Shown: positions 15,217 through 21,644 of the stretch, in pieces
Layout of the letters: each line of letters starts with the position of its first letter
Numbering within the stretch: position 1 is the first letter of the stretch
Assembly (NCBI GenBank): GCA_019456145.1
Contig: VRUL01000008.1
Coordinates: 60,438 to 124,437, forward strand
Direction of reading: 5' to 3'
DNA length: 64,000 bases
Source: Planctomycetota bacterium
GTDB lineage: Bacteria; Planctomycetota; Phycisphaerae; Sedimentisphaerales; Anaerobacaceae
Notes under the pieces: model-generated
Told to the model about the DNA's origin: nothing
Database searches by the model: none
The model's input: the letters and a program-made list of their open reading frames with translations, nothing else
Program-made: the position numbers and the translations under genes

Positions 15217-16608
15217 TCAGTATTCCCTATCTTTAACTATACCCGGCTGAGGAACTGGATATCTGCCGTCGGCGTCGGGCTGCAGGGGCGCAGGAGAATC
15301 CATCGTAAACTTGTCCAGTCCGGGCGCCATCTCGTGGTCGCTGTTGAGGATCTGGTCGTATGTGGTTTCCTGGCCGGTATGCGCGGCCATGCGGCCAAGG
15401 CTCGTGACCAGACTGGTATTGACACCGTTTTCGGTTTCGTTGTAGGGCTTGTCGCTGCGGATGGCTTCCATCAGGTCGTTCCATTCGTTTTGATATGGAT
15501 TCCTTTCTTCCGGCCTGATATTGGATTGCCATATCATGTTCGACTTGTCCATTTTCTGGCCCCTGTAAGTGCTGGAGGGTCTTCCACAGTCACCGTTCTT
15601 TGAGACGATCGCTATGCCTTTAGTGCCATGCGCGTAGCTGGAGTAGATGTTTGTGCAACCCGAGATGCAGCGTCCATCCATGAAGAACTTGCTGCCGTCG
15701 GCATACGTGTATTCCACCGAGTACGTATCGAAATTCTGGTCCACGTAAGTGATGCCTTCGGGACTCTTGCGATAATGGCGACCGCCCACGGCCTGGGCCT
15801 TGATCGGCCAGGCGTTCTTCATCCAGCATAGATGATCGATGATGTGGATGTTAAAGTCGCTGAAGTTACCGCCGCTTGCCCAGATGAAACTGTGGAACCG
15901 CTGTATTTGGTAAAGCAGGTCGCTGATACCGGGTGGTTTGGGCAGCGAGCGGAAGAATGCGGCCGGTCCATGCATCCGGTAGCCGCGCTGTAAAATGATG
16001 TCGCCGATTTCGCCGTCCTGGATGCGTTTTTGCAGTTCCTGGAGCGCCCGGCTGTGGCGCGACATCAATCCAACTCCTACTTTGAGGTTCTTCGCTGTTG
16101 CCTCTTTGCCGAGCTTGAACATCCGCCGACTCGTCGGGCCGTCCACGGTGACAGGCTTTTCCATAAAAACATTGAGGCGTTTCTTGACTGCGTAGGTGAA
16201 ATGCACCCAGCGGAATGCCGGAGGCGTTGCAAAAATCGCGACATCGCCCGGGCCCAGGCAATCCATCGCCTTTTTGTAAGCGTCGAAACCCACGAACCGG
16301 TGATCCTCTGTCACATCAACCTTGTCGGCGTGCCTCCTCTTTAGATTACTGTAACTGCTTTTAAGGCGATTTTCGAAGACGTCTCCCATGGCCACGAGTT
16401 TCATTGGCCCATTCTTGACAGACAGGGCGTTATCGGCTGCGCCGGTGCCCCGGCCGCCACAACCTACCAGGGCCACCTTGATAGTGTTGCTTTCGGCGGC
16501 GTACATACGTGGAACGGCCGCCGCCATAAAAGCCGATGTGGCGGCGATTCGACCGGTGTTTTTCAGGAACTCACGGCGTGACGTGCTTTTTTTAGTAATG
16601 TCGCTCAT
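15217..16608 (-). CDS. Gfo/Idh/MocA-family oxidoreductase with twin-arginine signal
   Basis: Has a Tat motif (SRREFLKNTGRIAATSAFMAAA) followed by a Rossmann segment (VALVGCGGRGTGAA). 463 aa. This architecture is common in Planctomycetes. Confidence 0.85.
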   Translation of the reverse strand: MSDITKKSTSRREFLKNTGRIAATSAFMAAAVPRMYAAESNTIKVALVGCGGRGTGAADNALSVKNGPMKLVAMGDVFENRLKSSYSNLKRRHADKVDVTEDHRFVGFDAYKKAMDCLGPGDVAIFATPPAFRWVHFTYAVKKRLNVFMEKPVTVDGPTSRRMFKLGKEATAKNLKVGVGLMSRHSRALQELQKRIQDGEIGDIILQRGYRMHGPAAFFRSLPKPPGISDLLYQIQRFHSFIWASGGNFSDFNIHIIDHLCWMKNAWPIKAQAVGGRHYRKSPEGITYVDQNFDTYSVEYTYADGSKFFMDGRCISGCTNIYSSYAHGTKGIAIVSKNGDCGRPSSTYRGQKMDKSNMIWQSNIRPEERNPYQNEWNDLMEAIRSDKPYNETENGVNTSLVTSLGRMAAHTGQETTYDQILNSDHEMAPGLDKFTMDSPAPLQPDADGRYPVPQPGIVKDREY

Positions 16609-16859
16609 AAAGGTTTTCCTCCTAACTGAATGGTTTCAACTTCACATACACATTTGCTCCGGGAATTGTCATTTCCCTTCGGCCTAAACGTCGTATAGGC
16701 CACATTAGGCATTATCATAGCCATTTCGCTGCATTTTACAAGTGTGTTTTCCCTGTCGTAGTATGAAAGTGTATCCGCCGATTCTTGGAATTTGTCCGGA
16801 CCTGTTGAAGTATTGGCGCTGCAGATTGCGCAGTTTAACATGGTTGAATGCTGAAATTG

Positions 16860-17376
16860 GCTTAAATTGGGTTCGTTTGGGTTCGTTTTGGGTTCGTTTT
16901 TCCCACGTTGACCAAGTGTCCTTTTTACATAATCGGCTGTTATAAAAGTATTTACGTTCATTTGACTTTTTCGGAAATTGGGTTCGTTTTGCATATATTC
17001 GTCGCTTGTCGCTCGTCTCTCGTCGCTCGTATTTAATCGTTAGTCGATAGTATTTAGTATATAGCCGGTTGAGGCCGGGACGACCGGCATTATTTTTTGG
17101 CAAACAGGGCTGGATAGGCGGTTTGCGTAGATTGTAATTGGTAGTTCATTGTTCATAGTTATTTAGTTGGTAGTTTGTAGTTCGTAGTTGGTAGTTATTC
17201 ACCTTTAGTTAATGAATAAATTTGATTTGGGCCTGCTGGCTCTATGTCCTTGCCACGCGGTGGCTTACGACATGCAAACTGAAATGTCATCTATCGCCTA
17301 CTGGCGGTTTACGTTTGCCTGCTGGCAAACATACAGGTATTTTAACAGATTTCCAAACAAAAGACAACAAAAAAAC
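16860..17376. repeat. Composite intergenic repeat, left copy (inverted partner at 49372-49900)
   Basis: Three collinear blocks match the reverse complement of the right copy: 16864-16995 vs 49762-49892, 17108-17160 vs 49682-49734, and 17295-17376 vs 49372-49455. The core 17295-17335 matches 49415-49455 at 39/41 nt. It contains the tandem units gggttcgttt(t) x3 at 16869-16901. Confidence 0.85.
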
Positions 17377-17506
17377 GGCCCAAAATTAAATTTTTTTTTG
17401 GCCGCCCTGAGCGCAGTCGAACGGGTCTATCACAACAAAAAAATGGCTTTATAAGCACATAAATAACGCCGTCTTACAGGCGGCGGAAGACAGAAATTGT
17501 TTTTGA

Positions 17507-17965
17507 AGGCAAGGGCGGGGCACAAAAAAGACTCCTGTTGTGGCCTTAGTGCAGAGAAACGGAATAGTCAAAAGCCAGAAAATGGATAGATTAACAGGAA
17601 AAAACCTTAAAGAGTTTATACATGATAATGTCGATAATACTTATGAGATTATGACGGATGATTTCAAGGCTTATAGGACACTAAGAAAAGATTTTAACCA
17701 TAAATTTGTGAATAATAGTATAGGCAGATATGTCAAAGGGAAAGTACATACAAATACTCTTGAGGGCTATTTTAGCCTATTAAAACGGGGTATCACGGGA
17801 ATTTTTCACCACGTTAGTAAAAAACATTTACATAGATATTTAAATGAGTTCGATTTTAGGTATAATATAAGAAAGAGGAATGACGGAGCATTAGCCTGTA
17901 TGTTATTGAACGGAATCGAGGGCAAGAGGTTGCTGTACCGGGACTCACGCAAGGTAGGTGCTTAG
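17507..17965 (+). pseudogene. IS1595-family (ISXO2-like DDE) transposase remnant, 5'-truncated
   Basis: The open frame from 17507 reads RQGRGGTKKTPVVALVQRNG...IMTDDFKAYRTL...NTLEGYFSLLKRGITGIFHHVSKKHLHRYLNEFDFRYN. This corresponds to the C-terminal ~150 aa of IS1595-type transposases. The N-terminal zinc-ribbon and the first part of the DDE domain are missing, and there is a stop at 17504. Confidence 0.75.
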
Positions 17966-17967
17966 AA

Positions 17968-18708
17968 ATGGCAAAGCATAAAAATATCATTAAACTTGAA
18001 ATTGATGGTCCAAGAATTACGGCTGACAAATTTACTCATAGCGTAAAAACTTTTTTTGATTTGATTAACGATGTTGCTACGGACGTTACAGGCAAGCGGA
18101 AAGCCGTTGAATGGATAGTTTCGGTAGAAAAAGGAAGTATTGGATTGTGTGCCACTGCTGAACCAATTGATATTCCTGCAAAAGATGTTACTGATATAGT
18201 GCAGGCAATAGAAAAAGGGATTCAGGCCATTAGCAAAAGACGAAAAAAACGACCAGACCATTTTTCTGATAATGCCTTAAAAAAGCTGTTTATATTAGGG
18301 AATATAACAGGCCTTGGTGACCAAGGGGTAGAACATATACGCATTCAAACTAATGGAGAACCCAATGAACTTTCGCCTTCAAGCGTAGCTTATGTTGATG
18401 ATTTATTACAAACTCCAACGAGAGCTTATGGAACTATTGATGGCTACTTATTAGCTTTAGAATTGAGAGGCCGCCTGAATTTTGAGATAGACGAAATTCT
18501 TAGCCGCAAAAGGATTAAATGTTTCTTTGCGGATAAAATATATAATGATGTAATTAAGGCTCTTAGGCAACGTGTTTCTGCTTATGGATTAATTAGTTAT
18601 AAAAAGGGTGGTGAGCCTAAGAATATCGATATTGAAAAACTAACGATTTTTCCCAATGATGATAAATTGCCAAAATTTAGGGATATAATAGGCTTACTTG
18701 CGAATTGA
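17968..18708 (+). CDS. Hypothetical 246-aa protein, upstream partner of the PIN gene
   Basis: ATG at 17968 lies 2 nt after the transposase-remnant stop and is preceded by AAGGTAGG. The region is AT-rich (about 32-33% GC in sampled lines). I see no recognisable HTH/RHH/AbrB motif. Has a basic linker, SKRRKKRPDHF. Confidence 0.7.
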   Translation: MAKHKNIIKLEIDGPRITADKFTHSVKTFFDLINDVATDVTGKRKAVEWIVSVEKGSIGLCATAEPIDIPAKDVTDIVQAIEKGIQAISKRRKKRPDHFSDNALKKLFILGNITGLGDQGVEHIRIQTNGEPNELSPSSVAYVDDLLQTPTRAYGTIDGYLLALELRGRLNFEIDEILSRKRIKCFFADKIYNDVIKALRQRVSAYGLISYKKGGEPKNIDIEKLTIFPNDDKLPKFRDIIGLLAN

Positions 18709-18710
18709 TT

Positions 18711-19208
18711 ATGGCCAGAGAAATAGTTTATTGGGATGCTAATTGCTTTTTGGGCCTGTTAAACAATGAACAGGACAAAATTAAATCGTGCGCTGGTGCA
18801 ATGAAAAAAGCCGAAGACGGCAAACTTGTTATAGTTACTTCTGCATTAACGTTTATCGAAGTAATAAGAATGAAGGGAAGGCCCAAGCTTAAAAAAAGCG
18901 TCGAACAAACCATCCAAGATTTCTTTTCTAATTCTTTTATCTATATTCATAATGTTGATAGAGAAGTGGGGATAAAGGCAAGAAATTTAATGTGGAAACA
19001 TAAATCGCTACAGCCTAAAGATTCTATTCACGTTGCAACTGCTCTTTTGCGCAACACACCTAAATTGCATACCTTTGATAAGGATTTATTAAAACTGAAA
19101 GATGCAAATATTACCAATAAACTTAAAATTTGTAAACCAGACATTGAGTATCAAATGGGATTTGATGATCTAAATGGGCAAGAAAAAGAACAAACAGATA
19201 AACCCTGA
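18711..19208 (+). CDS. PIN-domain (VapC-like) putative ribonuclease
   Basis: ATG at 18711 lies 2 nt after the upstream stop (TGA 18706-18708). The conserved acidic positions expected of a PIN fold are present: YWDAN, TFIEV, PKDSIHVATA, TFDKD. About 165 aa. Confidence 0.8.
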   Translation: MAREIVYWDANCFLGLLNNEQDKIKSCAGAMKKAEDGKLVIVTSALTFIEVIRMKGRPKLKKSVEQTIQDFFSNSFIYIHNVDREVGIKARNLMWKHKSLQPKDSIHVATALLRNTPKLHTFDKDLLKLKDANITNKLKICKPDIEYQMGFDDLNGQEKEQTDKP

Positions 19209-19470
19209 CGATGTTCTCAGGGCCATGCTCTCTACTCCCCCCCTCAAAAAGCGGAAAACTAAGAAAAAGCCTAAAAAGAAGTAAAAAACACTTGTGAGTT
19301 TGCCAAGTATACAATCACCAATCAAAATGTAAAGTGCAAAGCTACAAATCAAAAATAAAAAAGAGGTTTCAAGTGATTAATCCGCTAAAGGAACTCAAGG
19401 AACAGAAAAAAATGTACCACCTGAGGGTGCAGGCGGACACCTTTAATTCCCCCCTTGCAAATTATTGAGC

Positions 19471-21000
19471 ATGAATTTACAATTATGGATTATGGGAAAG
19501 AAACGTGCATCTGGTTCAAAGAAAGTCCAACTGGTTGGAAAACCGTCGGCTCTGGTGGATACGAGGGTCATTTATTGCGGCGATAATCTCGACCAGTTGA
19601 AAAAATTTCCCGATGGGTGCGTTGACCTTATTTATATTGACCCGCCTTTTAATTCCAACCGCAACTATGAGGTTTTCTGGGGTGAGACAAAAGAAAAACG
19701 CGCCTTCAAAGACCGGCATGCATCAACACAGGCCTATATCGAATTTATGCGGCCGCGATGTGTCGAGCTACACCGCGTTCTAAAGAAAACCGGCTCGTTC
19801 TATTACCATTGCGACTGGCACGCATCACACTACGTAAAAATAATGCTCGACCAAATCTTCAGCGAAAACCAGTTTCAGAATGAAATCATTTGGCAGCGCA
19901 CGTCCGCTGGAAAGCCGATCTATAGGAATTTACCGAAGAACGCGGATTCAATTCTGTGGTTTACTAAATCGGATCAGTATCTTTTCACGCCGATAATGCA
20001 ACCTCTAACAGAGGCGGATAAAGCCACGTTCGCTTCTGACGACGGAGACGGCAGGGGGCCGTACAACACTCAGCCTATCATCAATCCTGGCGACCGACCG
20101 AATCTGAAATATACATACACGGATCTAACGGGAAGAGAATGGTCTTCTCCGAAGACAGGATGGAGATTCAGTGAAGAGAGAATGAGGCAGGCTGAATCTG
20201 AAAACCGCCTTGCATTCGGTCAAACGACAATACGCGAGAAGTATTATTTGCGCGAGCGGGAGGCCAAGGGAAAGCAACTTTCTAATATCTGGACAGACAT
20301 ACCGATAGTAAGCGGAGAAGAAAAGCTCGGCTATCCAACACAAAAACCCCTTGCACTTTTAGACCGGATAATCAAAGCAAGTTCGAATGAAAACGATATT
20401 GTTCTCGATGCTTTTTGTGGATGCGGGACGGCGCTGGTTGCGGCTGAGAATCTTGGCAGACAGTGGATAGGTATTGATATGTCACCGACGGCCTGCCGGG
20501 TAATGGCCAAGCGTCTGCGCGATGTCTGCAAGATGAAAGAGGATGAGAAACTCTGGCGGATCGGGCGCGGCTTTATCGTTCGTGACCTGCCGTGGACCGA
20601 AAAGCAGCTTAGAGAAATCCCGCCGTTTGAATTTGAGAACTGGGCGGTTATAGCGCTGGGTGGTATTCCAAATAAGGCGCAGGTAGGCGATATGGGTATC
20701 GATGGTCGTATTTATCCTGTCTCTGCCACACCGAAGAAGCAAGAGGGCGAGCTGGACTTTATGGACCTCTGGTATCCCATCCAGGTCAAGCAGAAAGACA
20801 AAGTCGGCAGGCCGGATATAGATTCCTTTGAGGCCGTGATGATGCGTGAAGACCGCACAAAAGGATTCTTCGTCTCATTCGATTACTCATCCGATGCGAT
20901 AAACGAGATACAGGCCTTTTTCAAAAGGACCGGCAAAAGCATAATCGCCCTGACCGTCAAAGACATTCTCGAAGAACAAATCGCCCACAAATTGGCATAA
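19471..21000 (+). CDS. Beta-class N6-adenine/N4-cytosine DNA methyltransferase fused to a C-terminal Mrr-like PD-(D/E)xK nuclease domain
   Basis: Motif IV (IYIDPPFNSN) comes first and motif I (FCGCGTALVAAENLGRQWIGIDMS) later, which is the beta-class order. The C-terminal ~130 aa reads FENWAVIALGG...GDMGIDGRI...IQVKQKDKVGRPDIDSFEAV...KGFFVSFDYS, the restriction-endonuclease (Mrr_cat) pattern. Start is ATG 19471 or 19492. Confidence 0.85.
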   Translation: MNLQLWIMGKKRASGSKKVQLVGKPSALVDTRVIYCGDNLDQLKKFPDGCVDLIYIDPPFNSNRNYEVFWGETKEKRAFKDRHASTQAYIEFMRPRCVELHRVLKKTGSFYYHCDWHASHYVKIMLDQIFSENQFQNEIIWQRTSAGKPIYRNLPKNADSILWFTKSDQYLFTPIMQPLTEADKATFASDDGDGRGPYNTQPIINPGDRPNLKYTYTDLTGREWSSPKTGWRFSEERMRQAESENRLAFGQTTIREKYYLREREAKGKQLSNIWTDIPIVSGEEKLGYPTQKPLALLDRIIKASSNENDIVLDAFCGCGTALVAAENLGRQWIGIDMSPTACRVMAKRLRDVCKMKEDEKLWRIGRGFIVRDLPWTEKQLREIPPFEFENWAVIALGGIPNKAQVGDMGIDGRIYPVSATPKKQEGELDFMDLWYPIQVKQKDKVGRPDIDSFEAVMMREDRTKGFFVSFDYSSDAINEIQAFFKRTGKSIIALTVKDILEEQIAHKLA

Positions 21001-21004
21001 GCCC

Positions 21005-21087
21005 TATATTAGCAAAATCTCGTATTTCATAAGCATTACAGTATCAGTGAGTTATAGAAAACATGAAATTGGCAAACATTTTCAATG
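21005..21087 (+). repeat. MITE-like ~90-bp dispersed repeat, divergent copy 1
   Basis: Ends in aaattggcaaacattttcaatgg. Alignable with 25279-25372 and 29886-29979 (ataagc..tatcagtgagttat..aaattgg.aaacattttcaatg). Same orientation as the other two copies. Confidence 0.5.
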
Positions 21088-21434
21088 GCCGATGCGCGAG
21101 TTATGTCAAATTAATCAATTCAGCTGAGCCTAAATGGAAAACCGGACTGCGCGAGGGAAAAGATTTTCAGAAATAGAGGCACGATAAGATTTGCAAGAAC
21201 AGAATAATTGTTTGAGTTTGCTAATAGTGTGATTTTAGCAAAAAAACAAAGGTTTTTGTAGCATCGGATTAAATAGACGGAGGGAAAGAAAGGAACCATC
21301 GTGATGTAACTCCCTTTCAGTTTGGGTGCAGTGATGGTGAGAAGGGGTGACATTCTTATCCTGAAAAGCAACCAGATATTTATATGAGAGTTGAAAGCAG
21401 GTTAAGTAATTTTGAAAATAATTAAACAAGGCTC

Positions 21435-21463
21435 TTGACAATAGTGCAGAAACTACCATAATA
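21435..21463 (+). promoter_or_regulatory. Sigma70-like promoter candidate upstream of the BNR gene
   Basis: TTGACA (21435-21440), a 17-nt spacer, then ATAATA (21458-21463), about 180 nt upstream of the 21645 ORF. Sequence pattern only. Confidence 0.3.
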
Positions 21464-21644
21464 GACTTATATCAAAGATTAGAAATATTCTTCTAAGGCA
21501 AATGCAAAAGGATGGCAGGGTGATGAGGATGCTATTCTTGATTTCCTTCACATTCTCTTCCAGCCAGATAAAATTGCTGATTTGCCATATCAAGTGAGGA
21601 TGGGAAATCTCGGCTTAAAGTATTAAACCATACACAAATTATCT

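What the first reader, a model, noticed from the sequence alone, without database searches (positions are those of the whole stretch)
17968..19208. Candidate novel two-gene module: 246-aa unknown protein translationally coupled to a PIN nuclease
The PIN protein has all four acidic positions: YWDAN, IEV, KDSIH, TFDKD. Its upstream partner is about three times the size of classical VapB-type antitoxins. It shows no RHH, AbrB or HTH signature that I can see.

The partner has two halves joined by a basic linker (AISKRRKKRPDHF). The C-terminal half (YGTIDGYLLALELRGRLNFEIDEILSRKRIKCFF...RVSAYGLISYKKGGEPKNIDIEKLTIF) looks like a small beta-barrel or OB-like unit.

The tight coupling (TGA-tt-ATG) suggests stoichiometric co-expression. 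The large partner could be a sensor or inhibitor of the nuclease, that is, an atypical TA or abortive-infection pair.
Basis: partly seen in the sequence, partly recalled or inferred. Interest (0 to 1): 0.7.

Follow-up and report, generated by a model that had tools for sequence, protein, structure and literature searches.

The report
Transposon-carried PIN nuclease two-gene cassette
A PIN-type nuclease gene is always paired with an unannotated 245-residue gene whose product carries a nucleic-acid-binding OB fold; the pair rides inside IS1595-type jumping genes and is most likely an undescribed kind of toxin-antidote module, though nobody has tested this.

Summary
ORF 17968-18708 (246 aa) and a PIN ORF 18711-19208 (165 aa) are joined by TGA-tt-ATG, and the PIN has all four acidic residues.

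The partner matches no Pfam, NCBIfam, PADLOC or PHROG model. It nevertheless belongs to a large family: 2,704 representatives at E<=1e-3, nearly all about 245 aa, and every source name seen is 'hypothetical protein'. Its N-terminal alpha/beta domain has no confident structural relative.

The pairing is strict. All 42 distinct modules examined, from several phyla, have the partner directly upstream of this PIN subfamily. That count includes 6 of 6 look-ups started from distant PIN homologues.

The pair is the conserved cargo of an IS1595-family 'transporter IS', with a shared inverted-repeat core, 8-bp target duplications, a transposase coupled to the partner, and a small basic ORF after the PIN. 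The window copy is decayed: half the transposase and the left repeat are gone, but both cassette genes are intact.

Most likely (about 0.55) this is a VapBC-like toxin-antitoxin or addiction cassette with a new, large OB-fold antitoxin. Function is untested.

The parts
17505..17965 (+). 5'-truncated IS1595-family transposase remnant. The listed ORF is 17540..17965. Homology starts about 17507, just after an in-frame TGA at 17504-17506.
   Evidence: PF12762 DDE_Tnp_IS1595 at E=1.2e-27, covering profile positions 42-153 of 153. NF033547 transpos_IS1595 at E=3.4e-28, positions 100-215 of 215. A local HMM built from 5 full-length cassette-linked transposases matches only its positions 150-298. The upstream frame is closed. 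The stop TAG at 17963-17965 lies 2 nt before the partner ATG.
17968..18708 (+). Partner gene, 246 aa. It has an N-terminal alpha/beta domain, a conserved basic loop (KRRKKRPDHF), an OB-fold barrel, and a conserved C-terminal tail (LPKFRDIIGLL). It is the proposed antitoxin or regulatory subunit.
   Evidence: ORF. No family hit. The family has 2,704 representatives at E<=1e-3. AlphaFold2 model pLDDT 84.7. OB-fold matches. dN/dS 0.083.
18711..19208 (+). PIN-domain nuclease, 165 aa, from a divergent VapC-like subfamily. It carries a roughly 40-residue C-terminal extension (KLxICxPDIxYQ plus an acidic tail). It is the proposed toxin or effector.
   Evidence: PF01850 at E=4.7e-14. Acidic residues are invariant. 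The best solved relative by sequence is VapC 7by2, at only E=0.003. Sources name its homologues 'PIN domain-containing protein' or 'type II TA system VapC family toxin'.
19174..19284 (+). Small, very basic ORF of 36 aa (MGKKKNKQINPDDVLRAMLSTPPLKKRKTKKKPKKK). It overlaps the PIN 3' end in the +1 frame. Its function is unknown, and it is seen only in IS-borne copies.
   Evidence: The same ATG-started ORF, with the motif [DE]x[VA]L[KRE]x[ML]L[SK][TV]P[PA] followed by a K-rich tail, occurs in L001, L008, L010, L011, L031, L042, L045, L047 and L049. Degenerate traces occur in L007, L035, L038, L048 and L052.
19290..19319 (-). Right terminal inverted repeat of the IS. Read on the - strand it is GGTGATTGTATACTTGGCAAACTC..., with the core at 19297-19311. 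No left repeat is present in the window.
   Evidence: The core TATACTTGACAAACC is shared by the ends of the related elements. The window has one copy with 2 mismatches, at 19297-19311 on the - strand. DNA homology to the intact element in L001 runs from 17515 to 19290.

Best explanation
The locus is a decayed copy of an IS1595-family transporter IS. Its conserved cargo is a two-gene, toxin-antitoxin-like cassette.

Shown:
- A VapC-like PIN nuclease with an intact acidic active site is always encoded directly downstream of, and coupled to, a roughly 245-aa protein.
- That protein is built from a novel alpha/beta domain, an OB fold, and a conserved C-terminal tail.
- The pair moves as a unit inside IS1595 elements. 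It also occurs in prophage and integrase regions and as a solitary two-gene islet.
- The pair stays intact where the transposase has decayed.

Inferred:
- The partner binds the PIN stoichiometrically and keeps it inactive. The most likely contacts are the two conserved segments outside the domain cores: the basic RP..F loop (residues 90-100) and the C-terminal LPxFxDxxGIL tail. This would resemble the way VapB tails occupy the VapC groove.
- When partner supply stops, or the partner is titrated or degraded, the PIN cleaves RNA (plausibly tRNA or rRNA, as other VapCs do) and arrests growth.
- That penalises loss of the element (addiction) and could also abort phage infection.
- The OB fold would give the partner a single-stranded nucleic-acid-binding function, for autoregulation or for sensing. 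Classical VapB proteins use an RHH, AbrB or HTH domain for this instead.
For: 1. The PIN domain and its four acidic residues are conserved.
2. Gene order is partner first, with stop and start overlapping or separated by a few nt, in every locus: 13 of 13 genome loci, 23 metagenome loci, the other look-ups, and 6 of 6 reverse look-ups from PIN homologues at 36-46% identity. That makes 42 distinct modules.
3. The cassette is mobile. It lies inside IS1595 elements bounded by IRs sharing the core TATACTTGACAAACC. 8-bp target duplications are present in L001, L011, L042, L045, L047 and L049.
4. It also lies next to integrases and CI-like repressors, next to restriction-modification genes, or alone between housekeeping genes.
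5. Its GC content is lower than its flanks in nearly all loci tested.
6. The decay pattern fits a TA module. The transposase is truncated or frameshifted in at least 10 elements while partner and PIN stay intact. PIN is disrupted with the partner intact in L004 and L005. The partner is under strong purifying selection.
7. The most conserved partner positions outside the barrel are P96 and F99, together with L234, P235, D239 and G242. The tail has lower pLDDT (67-72), as expected for a segment that folds on its binding partner.
8. There is precedent. Type II TA pairs, including PIN and PIN_3 toxins, are integral cargo of Tn3-family transposons (PMC7157771). Passenger-carrying tIS are known in the IS1595 family (TnCentral preprint).
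Against: - No toxicity, neutralisation or complex formation was tested or modelled.
- The partner is three times the size of a VapB and lacks any recognised DNA-binding or antitoxin domain. It therefore fails one defining feature of classical VapBC.
- An OB fold next to a nuclease is equally what a substrate-binding subunit would look like.
- In two loci (L010, L012) the partner reading frame is interrupted while the PIN looks intact. That is unexpected for an essential antitoxin. Both come from assemblies in which the transposase is also frameshifted, so sequencing indels are a plausible cause, but this was not resolved.
- The family was not found in 72,556 plasmids or 50,697 phages, nor in IMG/VR. 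The classic plasmid-addiction setting is therefore not its habitat.
Confidence: 0.55

Rival explanations
1. Two-subunit nuclease. The partner is not an inhibitor but the substrate-binding or specificity subunit. Its OB fold recruits single-stranded RNA or DNA, or a tRNA anticodon loop, to the PIN active site. The complex is the active enzyme, for example an anti-phage or anti-MGE effector carried by mobile elements.
For: - The OB fold is of the tRNA_anti-codon (PF01336) type, found in class IIb aminoacyl-tRNA synthetases, RecJ, ExoVII and SSB-like proteins.
- Obligate co-occurrence in both directions fits a heteromeric enzyme as well as it fits a TA pair.
- The partner is conserved along its whole length, with dN/dS 0.083.
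- The interrupted partner frames in L010 and L012, next to an intact PIN, would be tolerable under this model.
- The cassette neighbours restriction-modification genes in several loci.
- A full-length structural match exists to an uncharacterised myovirus protein (E=1.8e-9).
Against: - A constitutively active PIN-OB nuclease would itself need a control mechanism, and no third gene is universally conserved.
- Partner-first order with translational coupling is the hallmark of antitoxin-toxin operons.
- Neither protein hits any PADLOC model beyond noise.
- Solitary islets between housekeeping genes, and survival after transposase decay, are typical of addiction modules.
Confidence: 0.25
2. Transposition accessory factors. 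The OB-fold protein and the PIN nuclease act on IS1595 transposition intermediates or regulate the transposase. For example, they could process single-stranded gaps or flaps, or bind the IR promoter. On this view they are neither a toxin nor an antidote.
For: - In intact elements the transposase stop overlaps or abuts the partner start: ATGA in L008 and L011, and TAG-aa-ATG in the window. The three genes therefore form one coupled operon, driven from an IRL that contains TTGACA.
- 20 of 39 distinct modules carry IS1595 traces.
- PIN-like folds include flap endonucleases (general knowledge).
Against: - About half of the modules have no transposase or IR nearby. They sit in unrelated contexts such as prophage repressor regions, integrase islands, an HNH/AAA/MazG operon, or between housekeeping genes.
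- The pair remains intact and under selection after the transposase has decayed, as in the window.
- Most IS1595 elements transpose without such genes (family knowledge; tIS are the exception).
- The PIN is of the PF01850 VapC type, not the FEN type.
Confidence: 0.05
3. Three-component system. The small basic ORF after the PIN (or, in other contexts, the HTH gene in front of the partner) is the real antitoxin or regulator. The large partner is a chaperone or adaptor, as in TAC systems.
For: - A conserved 36-48-aa basic ORF overlaps the PIN 3' end in at least 10 IS-borne copies.
- HTH_17 or HTH_3 genes precede the partner in L017-L024, L028 and L055.
- The partner lacks a DNA-binding domain.
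Against: - Neither the small ORF nor an HTH gene is universal. Only the pair is present in all 42 modules.
- The small ORF is absent from non-IS copies such as L002, L003, L006, L009, L013, L037 and L041.
Confidence: 0.07

Closest known systems
VapBC-type type II toxin-antitoxin systems (PIN toxin VapC with a small upstream antitoxin VapB)
   Same: - The PF01850 PIN domain has the four conserved acidic residues.
- The partner gene lies immediately upstream, is co-directional and is translationally coupled.
- Distribution is patchy and horizontally mobile.
- Database sources already name some PIN homologues 'VapC family toxin'.
   Different: - The partner is about 245 aa rather than about 70-90 aa.
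- It has no RHH, AbrB, Phd or HTH domain.
- It is instead built from an alpha/beta domain with no confident structural match plus an OB fold.
- The PIN is only remotely similar to any solved VapC (E=0.003) and has a conserved C-terminal extension.
- Neither toxicity nor neutralisation has been tested.
Toxin-antitoxin pairs embedded in Tn3-family transposons (Lima-Mendez et al. 2020, PMC7157771)
   Same: - A TA-like pair with an RNase-type toxin, including PIN and PIN_3, is carried as integral cargo of a DDE transposon next to the transposition genes.
- Toxin-truncated, antitoxin-intact decay forms are seen.
   Different: - The transposon family differs: IS1595 tIS rather than Tn3.
- Here the cassette is translationally coupled downstream of the transposase rather than sitting beside a res site.
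- The antitoxins in Tn3 are classical families (RHH_6, Phd/YefM, AbrB, ParD, HTH_37, MNT), not an OB-fold protein.
Transporter IS (tIS) of the IS1595 family
   Same: - The elements are IS-like, with one DDE_Tnp_IS1595 transposase, short terminal IRs and 8-bp target duplications.
- They carry passenger genes between the IRs. The TnCentral preprint states that tIS are restricted to the IS1595 and IS66 families.
   Different: - I found no description of this passenger pair in the held literature.
- The window copy is not a functional tIS. It lacks the left IR and the N-terminal half of the transposase.
Nucleases that combine a PIN or other catalytic domain with OB-type (S1, CSD or tRNA_anti-codon) RNA/DNA-binding modules, such as Rrp44/Dis3, RecJ and ExoVII (general knowledge)
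   Same: A nuclease is associated with an OB fold that binds single-stranded nucleic acid. ExoVII and RecJ OB domains are among the structural matches.
   Different: - Here the OB fold is on a separate polypeptide.
- No fusion proteins were seen among the best 150 family representatives.
- There is no evidence that the OB fold feeds substrate to the PIN.

Membership tests
VapBC type II toxin-antitoxin | The toxin is a PIN-domain protein with the conserved acidic quartet. | tested here: met
   PF01850 at E=4.7e-14. D9, E50, D104 and D123 are invariant or at least 90% conserved.
VapBC type II toxin-antitoxin | The antitoxin gene lies immediately upstream, on the same strand, overlapping or tightly coupled. 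| tested here: met
   TGA-tt-ATG in the window. The gap is about -8 to +10 nt in all related loci.
VapBC type II toxin-antitoxin | The antitoxin is a small protein with an N-terminal DNA-binding domain (RHH, AbrB, Phd/YefM or HTH) and a C-terminal toxin-binding tail. | tested here: not met
   The partner is 246 aa with no such Pfam or NCBIfam domain. The model shows an alpha/beta domain plus an OB fold. A conserved C-terminal tail exists, but its role is inferred.
VapBC type II toxin-antitoxin | The toxin arrests growth, and the antitoxin neutralises it by forming a direct complex. | not testable with these tools
   No multimer prediction or experiment was available.
IS1595-family insertion sequence / transporter IS | The transposase has an N-terminal Zn ribbon and a DDE_Tnp_IS1595 catalytic domain. 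| tested here: inconclusive
   In the window only the C-terminal part is present: PF12762 positions 42-153 and NF033547 positions 100-215. Full-length genes with Zn_ribbon_IS1595 plus DDE_Tnp_IS1595 precede the pair in L015 and L016. Full-length homologues also precede it in L001, L008, L011, L042, L045 and L049.
IS1595-family insertion sequence / transporter IS | Two terminal inverted repeats are flanked by an 8-bp target-site duplication, with the passenger genes inside. | tested here: not met
   The window has only the right IR, at 19290-19319, and no left IR within 64 kb. The feature is met in relatives. L011 has a 26-nt IR and the TSD TACGTTAA. L001, L042, L045, L047 and L049 have matching ends and 8-bp TSDs.
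OB fold, tRNA_anti-codon type (PF01336) | A five-stranded beta-barrel with a helix between strands 3 and 4, plus sequence or structure similarity to known OB domains. | tested here: met
   The AlphaFold2 topology is E152-166, E169-176, E182-187, H189-197, E202-211, E217-227. Foldseek top hits are OB domains at E about 2e-3 to 2e-2. PF01336 is hit by 6 of 136 family members, best E 5.2e-7. The window protein itself does not reach any Pfam threshold.
Known anti-phage defence systems (PADLOC-DB v2) | Either protein matches a model of a described or candidate defence system. | tested here: not met
   There were no hits for the window proteins. Scanning 136 family members gave only single marginal hits.

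The most novel reading that the evidence does not exclude
A new class of PIN toxin module in which a 245-aa OB-fold protein replaces the classical DNA-binding antitoxin and acts as a nucleic-acid-sensing brake. Binding of an invader-derived or stress-derived single-stranded RNA or DNA, or a tRNA, to the OB fold would release or activate the nuclease. IS1595 transporter IS elements would have adopted this cassette, coupled to their transposase, as their own maintenance and defence device. That would make it an insertion sequence with a built-in addiction or immunity system.
Probability: 0.25. Interest if true: 0.75.

Novelty: new variant of a known kind. Interest (0 to 1): 0.6.

Why it matters
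If the cassette is a toxin-antitoxin or abortive-infection pair, three things follow.
- It adds a large, widespread and wholly unannotated antitoxin family (thousands of sequence clusters with no Pfam model). Its architecture, an alpha/beta domain plus an OB fold, is unlike any described VapB.
- It would be a clear case of a simple insertion sequence carrying its own addiction module. That extends to the IS1595 family what is known for Tn3 transposons.
- It would help explain why two-gene PIN islets persist in genomes after the transposase that delivered them has decayed.

There is also a practical use. The family could be turned into a profile for TA and defence finders, which currently miss it.

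Tried and rejected
- **Partner against curated libraries.** The partner gave no hit in Pfam, NCBIfam, PADLOC or PHROGs. Only noise appeared: SRPRB at E=0.089 and phrog_20919 at E=0.16.
- **Family profiles against PDB sequences.** The only match was a pachytene checkpoint AAA+ protein, at E=0.0057 with the narrow profile. It vanished with the broader profile, so I treated it as spurious.
- **N-terminal domain modelled alone.** The model had pLDDT 82.7, but nothing in the PDB scored better than E=0.037 or TM 0.43. The fold is left unassigned, vaguely ferredoxin-like.
- **Searches of mobile-element collections.** tblastn of the window partner and of the family consensus against 72,556 plasmids and 50,697 phages gave no match. 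The IMG/VR scan also found none.
- **Metagenome scans with broad alignments.** Scans with A2 and A3 failed because no stretch was conserved enough. The scan worked with A1.
- **Rfam on 16000-21500.** It returned nothing.
- **Is the MTase at 19465-21000 part of the window element?** I rejected this. The right IR lies before it, at 19290-19319, and its GC content matches the host. In L008, however, a homologous MTase is inside the IRs.
- **Is the basic peptide a frameshift extension of the PIN?** This is less likely than an independent ORF, because every copy starts with its own ATG.
- **Literature searches.** Searches for IS1595 with PIN, for an OB-fold antitoxin, and for tIS with TA found nothing relevant.
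- **Frameshifted partner in L010 and L012.** I considered this as evidence against an antitoxin role. It could not be separated from assembly indels.
Full report
**What is in the window**

Three same-strand ORFs abut one another.
- ORF 17540-17965 ends with TAG, 2 nt before the next ATG.
- ORF 17968-18708 encodes 246 aa (the 'partner').
- ORF 18711-19208 encodes 165 aa and follows TGA-tt-ATG.

The last is a PIN domain (PF01850, E=4.7e-14). The first is the C-terminal part of an IS1595-family transposase: PF12762 at E=1.2e-27 covering profile positions 42-153, and NF033547 at E=3.4e-28. Its frame is closed by a TGA at 17504-17506, so the Zn-ribbon half is missing.

The partner hits nothing in Pfam, NCBIfam, PADLOC or PHROGs.

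**The partner family**

A word-indexed search found 35 close homologues at 50% identity or more. All came from uncultured Planctomycetota-type assemblies and all were named 'hypothetical protein'. A profile of these, run against 1.84 billion cluster representatives, found:
- 2,704 proteins at E<=1e-3,
- 1,396 at E<=1e-10,
- 212 at E<=1e-30.

Nearly all of the best 150 are full-length and 235-260 aa. A second search with a diverse profile again returned only unnamed proteins with no Pfam domain. So this is a large, coherent family that no searched library models and that every named source copy calls 'hypothetical protein'.

Invariant or near-invariant positions in 136 diverse members are W49, G56, S57, G84, P96, F99, L110, G155, G159, C185, R202, G207, G215, P235 and G242.

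**Partner structure**

The AlphaFold2 model from the family alignment has pLDDT 84.7. It shows:
- beta-alpha-beta-beta-alpha at residues 7-89,
- a loop carrying KRRKKRPDHF,
- a helix at 101-112,
- a classic five-stranded barrel at 152-227 with a helix between strands 3 and 4,
- a terminal helix at 237-245 with lower confidence.

Foldseek against the PDB returns only OB folds: LysRS anticodon-binding domain, Stn1/Ten1, PriB, SSB and ExoVII, at E about 2e-3 to 2e-2. Independently, 6 of 136 family members hit PF01336 (tRNA_anti-codon OB fold), best E 5.2e-7.

The N-terminal domain modelled alone (pLDDT 82.7) has no significant structural neighbour (best E 0.037). In the viral structure library, one uncharacterised myovirus protein of 270 aa matches over the full length (E=1.8e-9).

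**The pairing is strict**

- In 13 genome loci from Planctomycetota, Acidobacteriota, a deltaproteobacterium and Ignavibacteriales, a homologue of the PIN lies directly after the partner. The junctions are tight, for example TAA-a-ATG and TGA-g-ATG.
- The same holds for contigs encoding distant partners from Actinomycetota and soil metagenomes.
- It also holds for 23 metagenome loci.
- Starting instead from six PIN homologues at 36-46% identity, the upstream overlapping gene was in every case a member of the partner family, with HMM E between 1e-45 and 1e-65.

After removing duplicates, this gives 42 distinct modules with no exception. The PIN acidic residues are invariant. The subfamily is only remotely related to any solved VapC (7by2, E=0.003).

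**The mobile-element context**

A full-length IS1595 transposase lies directly in front of the partner in L001, L008, L011, L012, L015, L016, L042, L045 and L049. It is present but frameshifted in L010 and L047. Its stop overlaps or abuts the partner start.

These elements share a terminal repeat core, TATACTTGACAAACC, upstream of the transposase and inverted downstream of the PIN. L011 shows a complete 2.7-kb element with 26-nt IRs and the 8-bp duplication TACGTTAA. Aligned ends in L001, L042, L045, L047 and L049 are likewise flanked by 8-bp duplications.

Passenger-carrying 'transporter IS' are a recognised but rare structure, said to be restricted to the IS1595 and IS66 families (TnCentral preprint).

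Variation among the elements:
- Some carry extra cargo. In L008 a DNA methyltransferase lies inside the IRs.
- L031 is a 1.5-kb derivative with IR-like ends and the pair but no transposase.
- 3' remnants of the transposase precede the pair in the window and in L007, L013, L034, L035, L036, L038 and L048.

In all, 20 of 39 distinct modules bear IS1595 traces. The others lie beside integrases and CI-like repressors, inside an HNH/AAA/MazG operon, next to restriction-modification genes, or alone between housekeeping genes.

**The window copy**

- DNA homology to the intact L001 element runs from 17515 to 19290, at 75% identity.
- A single IR core, with 2 mismatches, lies at 19297-19311 on the minus strand. 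No left IR exists in the 64 kb.
- GC content is 0.36 against 0.46-0.50 in the flanks.

So the window holds a decayed, immobile element whose transposase is broken. The two cassette genes remain intact. dN/dS for the partner against L001 is 0.083.

**A further conserved feature**

A 36-48-aa, very basic ORF starts with its own ATG inside the PIN 3' end, in the +1 frame, and ends just before the right IR. In the window it lies at 19174-19284. It recurs with a conserved core (DVLRAMLSTPP or EKAxExLLSVxP, followed by a lysine-rich tail) in at least ten IS-borne copies. It is absent from non-IS copies. Its role is unknown.

**Interpretation**

Five things are shown:
- a conserved, mobile, tightly coupled pair;
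- an intact PIN active site;
- an OB-fold partner of a new family;
- carriage as IS1595 cargo;
- persistence after transposase decay.

The rest is inferred. Partner-first order, coupling, mobility, low GC, solitary islets and toxin-first decay (PIN disrupted with the partner intact in L004 and L005) together match a type II toxin-antitoxin or addiction module.

TA pairs with PIN toxins are already known as integral cargo of Tn3 transposons (PMC7157771). The conserved segments outside the domain cores, namely the RP..F loop and the C-terminal LPxFxDxxGIL tail, are the natural candidates for the PIN-binding, neutralising elements.

I put this reading at about 0.55. The main rival, at about 0.25, is that the OB-fold protein is the substrate-binding subunit of an active two-subunit nuclease. 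The data cannot exclude it, and the apparent partner frameshifts in L010 and L012 lean slightly towards it. A role in transposition itself is unlikely, because half of the modules have no IS.

**Comparison and novelty**

The cassette works like VapBC but fails one defining feature of that family: a small antitoxin with an RHH, AbrB, Phd or HTH domain. I therefore do not file it as a VapBC member. I call it a new variant of the PIN toxin-antitoxin kind, with a new antitoxin-candidate family and a new carrier, an IS1595 transporter IS.

I found no description of an IS1595-PIN association or of an OB-fold antitoxin in the literature held here. The family is also absent, at tblastn sensitivity, from the plasmid and phage collections and from IMG/VR. 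That probably explains why it has escaped notice: it lives in chromosomes of uncultured environmental lineages.

Noticed in passing
window 19174-19284 (+): A conserved small basic ORF (36 aa, MGKKKNKQINPDDVLRAMLSTPPLKKRKTKKKPKKK) overlaps the PIN 3' end in the +1 frame and ends just before the right IR. It is present in at least 10 IS-borne copies of the cassette and absent from non-IS copies. Its function is unknown.
   Followed up: partly
window 19465-21000 (+); L008 7336-8601: A DNA N4/N6 methyltransferase (PF01555) is fused to a C-terminal Mrr_cat-like domain and lies directly after the element. In the window it is outside the right IR and has host-like GC. In L008, L039 and L040 a 39-51% identical homologue lies inside the IS inverted repeats as extra cargo. 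This could mean flanking DNA was captured through an alternative right end.
   Followed up: partly
window 16850-17200: A low-GC stretch left of the truncated transposase holds several short tandem repeats: TTGGGTTCGTT x3, TCGTCGC x4.6 and TAGTTGG x4.7. It has no ORF or Rfam match. It may be the remains of whatever deleted the left half of the IS.
   Followed up: no
L031 1547-3035: A roughly 1.5-kb derivative has IR-like ends (2 and 3 mismatches to the core) enclosing only the partner, the PIN and the small ORF, with no transposase. It may be a non-autonomous, MITE-like form of the element. The flanking duplication is imperfect (6 of 8 nt).
   Followed up: partly
L004 6735-7067; L005 3148-3611: The PIN gene is truncated in L004 (111 aa, losing the fourth acidic residue; the same product is seen on 12 contigs) and frameshifted in L005. 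In both loci the partner is intact. The opposite case, an interrupted partner with an intact PIN, occurs in L010 and L012, where assembly indels are suspected.
   Followed up: partly
partner residue C185 (window about 18520-18522); PIN residue C27: A cysteine in OB-fold strand 3 is one of only three residues invariant across 136 diverse partners. A cysteine is also conserved in the PIN (DKxxxC) in the cassette copies aligned. A shared metal or redox site was not examined.
   Followed up: no
L027, L053, L054 (partners of 266 aa): A sub-branch of the partner family has an extra roughly 20-residue C-terminal extension (GKLDITGGMDSxEFVRRLRDA) after the conserved LPSAxDFEG tail. Its N-terminal domain is also more divergent.
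   Followed up: no
L055 1482-3483: In one contig the pair sits immediately after a CI-like repressor (HTH_3 plus Peptidase_S24) and before a run of small phage-type genes and a Rad52-family recombinase. This is the position where prophages often carry defence or exclusion genes.
   Followed up: no
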